Origin: a virus
Taxonomy: Duplodnaviria > Caudoviricetes
IMG/VR virus record: IMGVR_UViG_2974799246_000001
Span: 32,001 to 96,000 of that record
Length of the DNA: 64,000 nt
Direction: 5' to 3' (one strand)
The notes beneath the pieces were generated by a model. That model had not been told where the DNA came from. It worked only from the letters and a program-made list of their open reading frames with translations, and did not search any database. Below, piece by piece: positions 53,195 to 54,596 of this stretch (position 1 is the first letter of the stretch; each line of letters begins with the position of its first letter). The translations under genes and the position numbers were made by a program.

Positions 53195-53217
53195 GATTAT
53201 TCTCCTCTGTTAGACAC

Positions 53218-53223
53218 AAATTA
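53218..53223 (-). promoter_or_regulatory. putative late promoter motif TAATTT
   Basis: GCTAATTT 23 nt upstream of the PAAR ATG, right after a terminator. Confidence 0.6.
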
Positions 53224-53243
53224 GCTTGTTAGGCCGCAGAAAC

Positions 53244-53270
53244 AAAAACGGGCAGCCTCATGGCCACCCA
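53244..53270 (-). terminator. intrinsic terminator closing the putative ncRNA
   Basis: Minus strand GGGTGGCC-ATGA-GGCTGCCC-G-TTTTT. Confidence 0.8.
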
Positions 53271-53521
53271 GTTTCTGTGCTTGGATTTGTGTCGCCCATT
53301 CCCTCACACCCGAAGCGAGTGCCCGACGGCTTTAGCCGATGAGCCGGAATGAATGTCCGAGAGTGACGATACACCTGGTATCGACAGCATGTGACTCTCG
53401 GGCCATGATAGCAATAGACCAAGCATCGCTATTGCCACCAGCGACACTAAGAACAAAAGCATGTTTCGCTCCTCGTGTCTTACTTTAAATAACTACGTTT
53501 GATCAACTGGTACTTTGTTCT

Positions 53522-53549
53522 GCTCGTCGCCCAACATCACTTGAGTATC
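53522..53549. repeat. 28-bp direct repeat, copy 1 (GCTCGTCGCCCAACATCACTTGAGTATC)
   Basis: Exact match to 53911-53938. Confidence 0.95.
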
Positions 53550-53910
53550 AGAACGTTTCTCTGTCTTTACCGCCTACGTTGCGGTTATACCGCGCACGAC
53601 ACTCACATATCAAGGGCACTCGGCGGAAAAGGTAAGTTCCGAATGTCCTAACAACATGAGTGAAGCGAAGGAGGTCCCGTATCGGTGATCTGCAGGGGTT
53701 CACGCACTTTTAACATTCGCTTCTTTGTGCATTAAATCTTTCGTGGACTCGAATGCCCTGCTAATCATTCCACTAAGATATTTCACACCCTATTGTGAAC
53801 GGGTCAAGCTATGGCAGCACGTCAGCACGGCAGGCAGCGGACACACTCCATTAAGCATTGTTAAGGGCAATGCTCAACAGGCTGTGAACAGCTTGGTCGG
53901 AATAGGTTTC

Positions 53911-53938
53911 GCTCGTCGCCCAACATCACTTGAGTATC
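53911..53938. repeat. 28-bp direct repeat, copy 2
   Basis: Exact match to 53522-53549. Confidence 0.95.
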
Positions 53939-54508
53939 TCGACCTAAACTTTTACTCTCCACACGACTACAAGGAAGAATCGCGTTTCTGTGACCTGCGG
54001 ATGTTTATCACTCTCAGACTCTTGAGCCACTATCTGGAAGCTAACACGTTGAGTCGTCCGCTGGATGACGTGTTAGCTCTCCTCTCCTCGTCGTGCGAAG
54101 GCCAGAGTGGTAGCTGATGGATTGTCATGAAGTCCTGACAGGAGTCATCGCTTCCCAATGCACACAGGGTGAAAGCCTATGCACATCAGGCAGCGTCTGC
54201 TGCGATACTGCTATCCCCTTGAGAGTGGCCATAGCGTTGAGTTTGCGCTTCGCCAGTCTACGTGCCTGGAAGGTATCTGCCGTGCCTATGTCTGCATTCA
54301 GCATGGTTCCTTTGCTGGGCCTTTTGGGCGTCAGCGACAGAGCAGATATTCATCACGTGGGTGCCGGGGTTGTCCTCACGATTACAGAGCGAACTCAAAC
54401 CGGCTGGAGGCCCGTATGCTCAGGAATGCACATACGAGTTTACCAGAAGAACGGCCCCGCTATGGTAGCGTTCTTCCGAGACATACTGATATTACTATCT
54501 GCAATTTT

Positions 54509-54520
54509 TATTTACAGATT
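54509..54520 (-). promoter_or_regulatory. putative phage promoter motif AATCTGTAAATA pointing into the non-coding interval
   Basis: Exact reverse complement of the 1918/10863 motif; another copy at 54788-54799. Confidence 0.55.
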
Positions 54521-54596
54521 TTTCTTAACCTTCGCCCCAACCACAAGAAGCAGGTTTACCGTCACCGTAACCGATTTTAAACAGCATAGTTAGTCC

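What the first reader, a model, noticed from the sequence alone, without database searches (positions are those of the whole stretch)
53517..53945. Exact 28-nt module duplicated within the putative RNA and closed by different stems
Seen: GCTCGTCGCCCAACATCACTTGAGTATC occurs at 53522 and 53911. On the minus strand the copies read GTTCTG-ATA-CTC-AAGTGATGTTGGGCGAC-GAG-CAGAAC and AGGTCG-AGATA-CTC-(same loop)-GAG-CGA-AACCT. The core is identical while the flanking closing stems differ in sequence yet still pair. Inference: a selected RNA module displayed twice, such as a protein-binding site, antisense/guide seed or decoy. Phage RNA decoys are known (pseudo-ToxI in phiTE, Racr RNAs), but this sequence does not match those repeats as I recall them. 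A DNA-level operator or origin iteron is an alternative.
Basis: partly seen in the sequence, partly recalled or inferred. Interest (0 to 1): 0.75.

Follow-up and report, generated by a model that had tools for sequence, protein, structure and literature searches.

The report
Twin hairpin in giant phage RNA
The 28-letter repeat is a small, conserved RNA hairpin displayed twice on an undescribed 1.25-kb folded RNA of Erwinia/Dickeya jumbo phages, probably as two landing sites for one still unknown partner.

Summary
The 28-mer occurs exactly twice in the window and in the whole 265-kb phage genome.

- **Location.** Both copies lie in a 1.4-kb gene-free gap between a 586-aa gene and the PAAR/baseplate genes of an Alexandravirus jumbo phage.
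- **The gap is a folded RNA.** It is a minus-strand unit of about 1.25 kb, running from a phage-type promoter to an intrinsic terminator, and no Rfam family matches it. Across 19 relatives, 142 of 280 predicted pairs show compensatory changes, and 81.7% of changed cells still pair (shuffles reach at most 50.1%).
- **The module.** It has a G-C closing pair, a 3-nt A-N-A bulge, a 3-4 bp stem and a 15-nt conserved loop. Three of the four stem pairs covary. The module caps two different arms whose outer stems also covary.
- **Conservation.** Copy B is nearly invariant while the rest of the RNA diverges to about 72%. Copy A drifts, but it is the copy kept in the most distant relative.
- **What was not found.** There is no covarying partner within the RNA, no antisense target, and no copy in bacterial genomes.

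My best reading is a twin docking site for one trans-acting partner, most likely a protein. The function remains untested.

The parts
53522..53549 (-). Module copy A, 28-nt core: G-C closing pair, AUA bulge, CUC(A)/(C)GAG stem and the 15-nt loop AGUGAUGUUGGGCGA
   Evidence: Exact match. Model R1 hit at E 8.5e-9. Stem covariation.
53517..53554 (-). Copy A whole hairpin, including the 6-bp outer stem GUUCUG/CAGAAC. It is a free-standing arm about 55 nt upstream of the small ORF.
   Evidence: Five of the six outer-stem pairs change on both sides and stay paired. In the most distant relative the stem is GACAGC/GCAGUC.
53911..53938 (-). Module copy B, 28-nt core, the more conserved copy. It is unchanged in 15 of 20 relatives except for U/A at loop position 6 and U/C at position 9.
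   Evidence: It is the 7th most conserved non-overlapping 28-nt block of the RNA.
53900..53949 (-). Copy B whole arm, with a long outer stem (about 7-11 bp) that differs between clades
   Evidence: Eight of eleven outer pairs are compensatory. In one search, columns 683-689 pair with 725-731, and each of these pairs has 3-7 sequences changed on both sides.
53239..54502 (-). Parent transcript: a structured RNA of about 1.25 kb. The 5' end is inferred to lie a few nt downstream of the promoter motif; the 3' end is at the terminator U-tract.
   Evidence: No Rfam match. Minus-sense G-U 838 versus A-C 90. 280 pairs, 142 of them compensatory. 81.7% of changed cells still pair. No 3-nt periodicity over RNA positions 1-1040.
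54509..54518 (-). Promoter-like motif TCTGTAAATA, inside a 32-nt block that is invariant in relatives
   Evidence: The 8-mer core occurs 34 times in the genome against about 8 expected, mostly 20-60 nt upstream of start codons. The block is invariant in alignment A1.
53239..53270 (-). Intrinsic terminator: a 9-bp G+C-rich stem with a tetraloop, followed by a U-tract
   Evidence: Terminator scan. The stem's G-U pairs switch to G-C in relatives (columns 1413-1434).
53304..53462 (-). Small ORF of 52 aa inside the 3' part of the RNA. It has a Shine-Dalgarno sequence (AGGAGC) and a hydrophobic N-terminus. The codons also form covarying RNA helices.
   Evidence: The ORF is open in frame to a stop at the same alignment column in all 18 relatives aligned, and is also present in MG13825. 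Codon position 2 is conserved in codons 1-20 (entropy 0.23, against 0.56 and 0.62). No Pfam or PHROG family.

Best explanation
Shown: the repeat is an RNA-level element. It is a short hairpin with a G-C closing pair, an A-N-A bulge on the 5' side, a 3-4 bp stem whose sequence is free to change provided it pairs, and a 15-nt loop whose sequence is fixed. It sits at the tip of two different arms of a minus-strand, highly structured transcript of about 1.25 kb, which runs from a promoter to a terminator. Alexandravirus-type jumbo phages carry this transcript between a 586-aa gene and the baseplate genes. Inferred: because only the loop and bulge letters are held constant and no partner sequence within the RNA covaries with them, the two hairpins are recognition sites for one trans-acting partner. 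That partner is most likely a sequence-specific RNA-binding protein, perhaps a dimer or two copies. Such binding could clamp two distant arms of the RNA together, or load the partner onto the RNA. The loop could present itself either through two extra pairs (G10-C21, U11-G/A20) that leave an 8-nt apical loop, or as a kink-turn-like bend (3-nt AGU, then tandem G.A/A.G). The data do not decide between these. The confidence given (0.5) is for the inferred part, a protein or other trans-factor docking site. The shown part, a selected RNA hairpin displayed twice in a structured RNA, I put at about 0.9.
For: - **Copy number.** Exactly two copies in the genome.
- **Conservation.** Both copies are kept in 11 Alexandravirus lineages, the SNUABM_34 group and metagenome contig L054.
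- **Inner stem.** 91.9% of cells are paired. Three of four pairs change on both sides (U-A/C-G; C-G/A-U/U-A; U-A/A-U). 0 of 500 shuffles reach the covariation score, and slid controls give 20.7-49.2% paired.
- **Outer stems.** Both arms covary.
- **Strand.** G-U pairs in the outer stems occur only on the minus strand. Across the whole RNA the minus-sense fold has G-U 838 versus A-C 90.
- **Parent RNA.** The fold is strongly supported: 142 of 280 pairs are compensatory. 81.7% of 1177 changed cells still pair, against a shuffle maximum of 50.1%.
- **Sequence constraint.** Copy B is 100% identical in phages whose RNA is only 73-83% identical.
- **No partner within the RNA.** No complementary segment keeps pairing without relying mostly on G-U wobble.
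- **Specificity.** The module occurs nowhere else in viral, metagenome or bacterial-genome collections, apart from chance-level hits; those checked have no stem.
Against: - No partner protein has been identified. The phage has no L7Ae-family protein, and the neighbouring genes give no RNA-binding signal.
- Two copies are not universal. The most distant relative, MG13825, has a canonical copy A but other hairpins at the copy B site. In Y3 both copies are diverged.
- The fourth stem pair is an A.C mismatch in every copy B.
- Single-sequence folding of the window's own copies prefers a different pairing (CUCAA/UUGGG). That pairing has no covariation support.
Confidence: 0.5

Rival explanations
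1. The loops and A-rich bulges make RNA-RNA contacts. These would be either tertiary contacts within one molecule or bridges between molecules in a homo-oligomer, as in the kissing-loop and A-minor bridges of the GOLLD and ROOL nanocages.
For: The parent is a large ornate phage RNA. In GOLLD and ROOL, conserved loops turned out to be intermolecular bridges (PMC12286853). The bulge adenines at positions 2 and 4 of the module are invariant, as A-minor donors would be. Both modules cap peripheral arms.
Against: No complementary segment in the RNA covaries with the loop. The best candidates (RNA 328-336 and 1095-1102) pair mostly through G-U, and the first is already part of a well-supported helix. 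The loop is not self-complementary.
Confidence: 0.2
2. The two identical hairpins are processing signals for an endoribonuclease. Cleavage at both would release the conserved segment of about 390 nt between them, much as repeat hairpins bound CRISPR or ToxI units.
For: Identical signals lie 389 nt apart on one transcript. The segment between them contains several of the most conserved blocks of the RNA, including an invariant CCUCCUU stretch.
Against: There are only two copies and they are not a tandem array. No Cas6-like or ToxN-like nuclease was found (ToxN search). In MG13825 only one copy exists. There are no end-mapping data.
Confidence: 0.07
3. The loop is an antisense or guide seed that pairs with a phage or host RNA.
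For: The loop is long, exposed and sequence-constrained, and it is presented twice.
Against: The whole phage genome has no complementary site above chance. There is one 15-mer site with 2 mismatches, against about 0.5 expected and 1 in the reversed control. 9- to 11-mers occur at or near expectation. Resemblance or complementarity to E. coli rRNA is at chance level (178 of 300 shuffles score as high). Host (Erwinia) transcripts could not be searched specifically.
Confidence: 0.05
4. The repeat acts at the DNA level, as iterons of an origin or as operators for a DNA-binding protein.
For: Two identical 28-bp sites lie in a non-coding region.
Against: The stems change by compensatory substitutions, and the outer stems have G-U pairs only on the minus strand. 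A protein reading double-stranded DNA would not select for this. The surrounding 1.25 kb shows strand-specific RNA covariation throughout. The sites are not clustered as iterons usually are.
Confidence: 0.03

Closest known systems
GOLLD (RF01998) and ROOL (RF03087), the large ornate RNAs of phages and prophages
   Same: All are phage-borne, very large, intricately folded RNAs supported by covariation, with unknown function. All have conserved terminal loops that lack an obvious intramolecular partner.
   Different: There is no sequence or structure homology: no Rfam hit even at E up to 10. The genomic setting differs, being next to baseplate genes rather than tRNA islands; no tRNA was found in the window. 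This RNA is longer (about 1.25 kb), its 3' part carries a small conserved ORF, and multimerisation is untested.
Repeated protein-binding hairpins on one transcript: the PyrR binding loops of the pyr operon, the twin anticodon-like hairpins of the thrS operator bound by dimeric ThrRS, and the lambda boxB hairpins of nutL/nutR (recalled from established literature)
   Same: In each case a hairpin with a fixed loop and a freely covarying stem is presented more than once to a single protein.
   Different: Those elements sit next to terminators or ribosome-binding sites that they control. Here the copies are 389 nt apart inside a giant folded RNA, no partner protein is known, and there is no sequence similarity.
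Kink-turn hairpins such as the U4 snRNA 5' stem-loop and box C/D motifs (recalled from literature)
   Same: The order of elements fits: a canonical stem, a 3-nt bulge (AGU), then G-A facing G-A next to the stem, with the far side closed by a short loop. The 5' loop half, GUGAUG, resembles box C (RUGAUGA).
   Different: The positions after the G.A pairs would be U.C and G.G rather than pairs. Two relatives have A in place of the second G. Neither the phage nor, to my knowledge, enterobacteria encode an L7Ae-type binder. An alternative with two Watson-Crick/wobble pairs fits the variation equally well. The only Rfam hint is a sub-threshold C/D hit (15.7 bits against a 36-bit cut-off, E 0.96).
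Phage RNA decoys: pseudo-ToxI of phiTE and Racr RNA anti-CRISPRs
   Same: These too are phage non-coding RNAs that carry repeated structured units.
   Different: ToxI and pseudo-ToxI are tandem 36-nt repeats cut by ToxN. Here the two units are dispersed, the phage has no ToxN, and no homologous unit was found in bacterial genomes. Racr RNAs mimic the host's CRISPR repeats. No copy of the module exists in 185,579 bacterial species genomes beyond 3 chance-level hits in unrelated soil MAGs.

Membership tests
GOLLD / ROOL / OLE / any Rfam family | Match to the family covariance model at or near its gathering score | tested here: not met
   cmscan of the whole window at gathering thresholds gave 0 hits. 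The region at E up to 10 gave only two sub-threshold chance hits, sR17 at 15.7 bits and BTnc231 at 14.9 bits.
Structured non-coding RNA (general) | Base pairs maintained by compensatory substitutions, strand-specific G-U pairs and no coding signal | tested here: met
   142 of 280 pairs are compensatory. 81.7% of changed cells still pair, against a shuffle maximum of 50.1% and slid controls of 10-19%. G-U 838 versus A-C 90 on the minus strand. No 3-nt periodicity outside the small ORF.
Kink-turn | Canonical stem, 3-nt bulge, then tandem sheared G.A and A.G pairs | tested here: inconclusive
   The sequence order fits in both copies. G12, U11 and G10 are invariant, and A13 and A23 are at least 90% conserved. 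Non-Watson-Crick pairs cannot be tested by covariation. G22 is A in two relatives, and a rival two-pair model fits.
Kink-turn | An L7Ae/15.5K-type binding protein is available (usual but not obligatory) | tested here: not met
   A PF01248 search of the whole phage genome found no match at E up to 1.
ToxI / pseudo-ToxI antitoxin RNA | Tandem array of about 36-nt repeats processed by a ToxN endoribonuclease | tested here: not met
   There are two copies 389 nt apart with no tandem array. No ToxN (PF13958) in the phage.
Racr (RNA anti-CRISPR) | The unit mimics the host's CRISPR repeat in sequence and hairpin | tested here: inconclusive
   A module pattern scan of one genome per bacterial species gave no enterobacterial hit. 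A direct comparison with Erwinia amylovora CRISPR repeats could not be run, because no tool supplied those repeats.
DNA iterons / operators | Sequence conserved as double-stranded DNA, with no requirement for intrastrand pairing | tested here: not met
   The stems change sequence while keeping pairing, and the outer stems have strand-specific G-U pairs.

The most novel reading that the evidence does not exclude
The 1.25-kb RNA is a new class of large 'ornate' phage RNA that works through its three-dimensional fold. The twin hairpins would be its functional interface. One option is that they act as bridges that assemble several RNA molecules into a higher-order particle. The other is that they form a two-site trap that captures a host or phage protein, for example a defence or translation factor, during late infection.
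Probability: 0.2. Interest if true: 0.85.

Novelty: new variant of a known kind. Interest (0 to 1): 0.62.

Why it matters
Very few large structured RNAs are known in bacteria and phages, and none of GOLLD, ROOL or OLE has an assigned mechanism. This one is longer than those, has unusually clean covariation support, and belongs to cultivable phages of a tractable host, so it can be mutated and purified. The twin hairpin gives a concrete handle. It is a 28-38-nt element with fixed loop letters that can be used directly as bait for a partner and as a target for loop-swap mutations. The RNA also overlaps a small conserved membrane-peptide ORF, which raises the possibility of a dual-function RNA or a giant regulatory leader.

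Tried and rejected
1. **Alternative inner pairing.** CUCAA/UUGGG was proposed by RNAalifold for copy B and by single-sequence folding of the window. It has no pair changed on both sides, and shuffles equal the observed values, so I rejected it.
2. **Loop receptors at 54313-54330.** The CGCCCAA site is not conserved in relatives whose loops are unchanged, and a systematic scan for conserved complementary segments found only G-U-rich matches. Rejected.
3. **Mimicry of 16S rRNA.** I recalled a resemblance to 16S positions around 1076-1110. Against the real E. coli rrn operon, the best local alignment scores no better than 178 of 300 shuffles. Rejected.
4. **Antisense targets in the phage genome.** Matches are at chance level.
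5. **Protein-coding reading of the gap.** No open frame is shared by all relatives except the 52-aa ORF. The + strand ORFs annotated in pEa_SNUABM_28 are not annotated in other relatives, and there is no codon periodicity.
6. **L7Ae and ToxN in the phage.** Both are absent.
7. **Homology in more distant genera.** Yoloswagvirus, Rivsvirus and Salmondvirus have no module and no detectable RNA homology. Only the promoter motif in all four, and the terminator in the two Salmondvirus phages, recur at the same locus.
9. **Hits to the module pattern in soil metagenomes and MAGs.** The metagenome hits are one conserved stretch, probably part of a gene, with no stem complementarity, which is chance level. 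The three MAG hits were not inspected.

Full report
**Observation.** The 28-mer is present exactly twice, at 53522-53549 and 53911-53938 on the + strand. There are no near-matches elsewhere in the window, and none appeared in 100 shuffles. It is the only substantial internal repeat of the region. A covariance model built from the module (R1) finds exactly these two places in the complete 265,146-bp phage genome. Each scores E 8.5e-9, and the next best hit scores E 2.4.

**Context.** The window comes from an Erwinia jumbo phage of the genus Alexandravirus, 98.9% identical over this region to pEa_SNUABM_28/16 and 98.6% to pEa_SNUABM_18. The repeat lies in a 1.4-kb stretch without genes (53195-54596).

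- On one side is a 586-aa gene with only a KMPT-N domain. On the other are the PAAR spike, gp25-like and baseplate wedge genes. All are on the minus strand.
- Every relative keeps a gap of 1.27-1.46 kb at this position. Annotators either left it empty or filled it with small ORFs that differ from record to record.
- Rfam has no match at gathering thresholds, and nothing meaningful at E up to 10. There are no tRNAs in the window.

**The gap is one structured minus-strand RNA.**

- **Alignment.** I collected 20 distinct versions from GenBank phages, IMG/VR and metagenome contigs. They range from 57% to 99% identity to the window.
- **Strand.** Folding the alignment in the minus sense gives 838 G-U cells against 90 A-C cells. 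The plus sense gives 407 against 256, so the RNA strand is the minus strand.
- **Covariation.** RNAalifold on 19 sequences predicts 280 pairs, and 142 of them have at least one sequence changed on both sides that still pairs.
- **Fold test.** 95.9% of cells are standard pairs. Of 1177 cells that differ from the commonest pair, 81.7% still pair. Shuffles give a mean of 48.1% and a maximum of 50.1%, and sliding the 3' partner by 1-3 columns gives 10-19%.
- **5' boundary.** The unit begins at an invariant block containing TCTGTAAATA. The 8-mer core of this motif occurs 34 times in the genome against about 8 expected, typically 20-60 nt upstream of start codons. I read it as a phage promoter that resembles the T4 late TATAAATA element. 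That comparison is from memory.
- **3' boundary.** The unit ends at an intrinsic terminator at 53270-53249 followed by a U-tract. The G-U pairs of the terminator stem switch to G-C in relatives.
- **Downstream operon.** The PAAR operon that follows has its own recurrent motif, GCTAATTT.
- **Coding signal.** Positions 1-1040 of the RNA show no 3-nt periodicity of substitution.
- **Small ORF.** The last 220 nt or so contain a 52-aa ORF (53462-53304) with a Shine-Dalgarno sequence and a hydrophobic N-terminus. It stays open in frame to a stop at the same alignment column in all 18 relatives aligned at that stage, and it is also present in MG13825. Codon position 2 is conserved in its first 20 codons. 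Its second half evolves through RNA-helix compensation rather than amino-acid conservation.

**Anatomy of the module.** Alignment of 20 copies (A2) gives the following order of elements:

- an invariant G paired to an invariant C;
- a 3-nt bulge, A-(U/A)-A;
- a stem whose first pair is always C-G;
- a 15-nt loop, AGUGAUGUUGGGCGA.

The next three stem pairs covary: U-A/C-G, then C-G/A-U/U-A, then U-A/A-U (or A.C). On this structure 91.9% of cells pair, three of four stem pairs change on both sides, no shuffle out of 500 reaches the observed covariation score, and slid controls fall to 20.7-49.2%. The alternative pairing CUCAA/UUGGG has no covariation support, although single-sequence folding of the window's own copies prefers it.

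- **Copy A (53554-53517)** is a free-standing hairpin with a 6-bp outer stem. Five of those six pairs are replaced by other pairs in relatives, for example GAAUUG/CAAUUC, GAGUUG/CAACUC and GACAGC/GCAGUC.
- **Copy B (53949-53900)** caps a longer arm whose 7-11 bp outer stem also differs between clades.
- **Register of copy B.** In pEa_SNUABM_34 and in contig L054 the pairing next to the module shows the same layout as copy A, a G-C closing pair followed by an AUA bulge.
- **Within the loop,** positions 1-5 (AGUGA), 10-11 (GG), 13 (C) and 15 (A) are essentially fixed. Positions 6-9, 12 and 14 vary in a limited way.
- **Two internal arrangements fit the loop.** One has two further pairs, G10-C21 and U11-G20. 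G20 becomes A in four sequences, which gives U-A. The other is a kink-turn-like motif, with AGU as the 3-nt bulge followed by G.A and A.G. I cannot decide between them.

**Distribution and constraint.**

- Copy B is 100% identical in Alexandra, AD1 and pEa_SNUABM_1, while the RNA as a whole is 83%, 78% and 73% identical to the window's in those phages.
- Copy B is the 7th most conserved non-overlapping 28-nt block of the RNA.
- Copy A drifts more. Its loop is degenerate in Alexandra and has one or two substitutions in several others.
- Copy A is nevertheless the copy retained, with the canonical loop, in the most distant relative that still has the RNA. That relative is MG13825 (loci L045 plus L050), whose 586-aa protein is 62% identical. 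Its copy B site holds different hairpins.
- In Y3 (Sasquatchvirus) copy A is recognisable (E 0.0015) and copy B keeps only the architecture.
- Yoloswagvirus, Rivsvirus and Salmondvirus phages keep a TCTGTAAATA promoter and gaps at the same locus, and the two Salmondvirus phages also keep a matching terminator. None has the module or detectable RNA homology.
- Exact identity of A and B is therefore a feature of this lineage. The conserved features are the loop, the bulge and the architecture.

**Partners.**

- **Within the RNA.** No segment stays complementary to the loop across relatives except through runs of G-U pairs, and one of the two candidates is already part of a well-supported helix. 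The receptors suggested at 54313-54330 are not conserved.
- **In the phage genome.** There is no excess of complementary sites.
- **rRNA.** A resemblance to 16S rRNA that I recalled proved to be at chance level against the real sequence.
- **Other collections.** A pattern for the module, scanned over IMG/VR, JGI metagenomes and one genome for each of 185,579 bacterial species, finds it only in this phage RNA family. The remaining hits are a few chance-level matches; the metagenome ones lack a stem and the three MAG hits were not inspected.
- **Phage proteins.** The phage encodes no L7Ae-family protein and no ToxN.
- **Literature.** I found no paper that describes this RNA.

**Interpretation.** It is shown that the repeat is a selected RNA hairpin presented twice on different, covarying arms of a large structured phage RNA. 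It is inferred that the fixed loop and bulge letters, together with the freely changing stems and the lack of a partner within the RNA, mark a recognition site for a trans-acting factor.

- I favour a protein, about 50%. The thrS operator, the PyrR loops and boxB are precedents for repeated protein-binding hairpins.
- RNA-RNA tertiary or quaternary bridging of the GOLLD/ROOL type comes next, about 20% (PMC12286853).
- Processing signals, an antisense seed and a DNA-level role are less likely.

**Verdict.** The function remains open. The element belongs to an undescribed family of large phage RNAs. It is related in kind, but not in sequence, to GOLLD and ROOL. It is unusual in carrying a twin hairpin and an embedded small ORF.

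Noticed in passing
window 53304-53462 (-): A conserved 52-aa small ORF (47-52 aa in relatives) with a Shine-Dalgarno sequence and a hydrophobic N-terminal helix lies inside the 3' part of the structured RNA. Its Shine-Dalgarno sequence and start codon sit in a hairpin, and its C-terminal half changes through RNA-helix compensation. It may be a dual-function RNA, or a small membrane peptide with a giant leader. No Pfam or PHROG family matches.
   Followed up: partly
window 54509-54518 (-) and 33 other genome sites: The motif (aa)TCTGTAAA(ta) recurs 34 times in the 265-kb genome against about 8 expected, mostly 20-60 nt upstream of start codons. It is probably a phage-specific promoter class resembling the T4 late TATAAATA element.
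   Followed up: partly
window 53218-53225 (-) and about 17 other genome sites: A second recurrent upstream motif, (A/G)CTAATTT, lies 25-45 nt before many start codons of structural genes, including the PAAR/baseplate operon just after the RNA's terminator. It is probably another promoter class.
   Followed up: partly
window 53665-53686 (-): The invariant stretch GCAGAUCACCGAU...CCUCCUUCGC resembles the 3' end of 16S rRNA, with an anti-Shine-Dalgarno-like CCUCCUU at 53668-53674. The CCUCCUU is predicted to be unpaired and lies between the two module copies. It could pair with Shine-Dalgarno sequences, including that of the small ORF.
   Followed up: no
window 54520-54596: A 77-nt segment between the stop codon of the 586-aa gene and the RNA promoter block is present only in the window's lineage. 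In other relatives the promoter block abuts the gene.
   Followed up: no
L003:3270-3300 region and equivalents; window 53499-53506: Between copy A and the small ORF, most relatives carry a perfect 14-nt palindrome, ACATTTGCAAATGT. The window's clade has TTGATCAA instead. This could be an operator or a hairpin upstream of the small ORF.
   Followed up: no
L059-L062 (Yoloswag, pEa_SNUABM_5, JA13, JA29), downstream of the 586-aa homologue: More distant genera keep a TCTGTAAATA promoter directly after the 586-aa gene and 0.6-1.0-kb unannotated gaps. In JA13 and JA29 there is also a terminator matching the window's, before the PAAR gene. None has detectable homology to this RNA. The locus may hold diverged or replaced RNAs.
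   Followed up: partly
L045 and L050 (IMG/VR UViG 3300013825 contigs 9 and 7): Two metagenomic viral contigs overlap by about 100 nt inside the RNA gene. They appear to be neighbouring pieces of one phage genome that was broken within this locus during assembly.
   Followed up: yes
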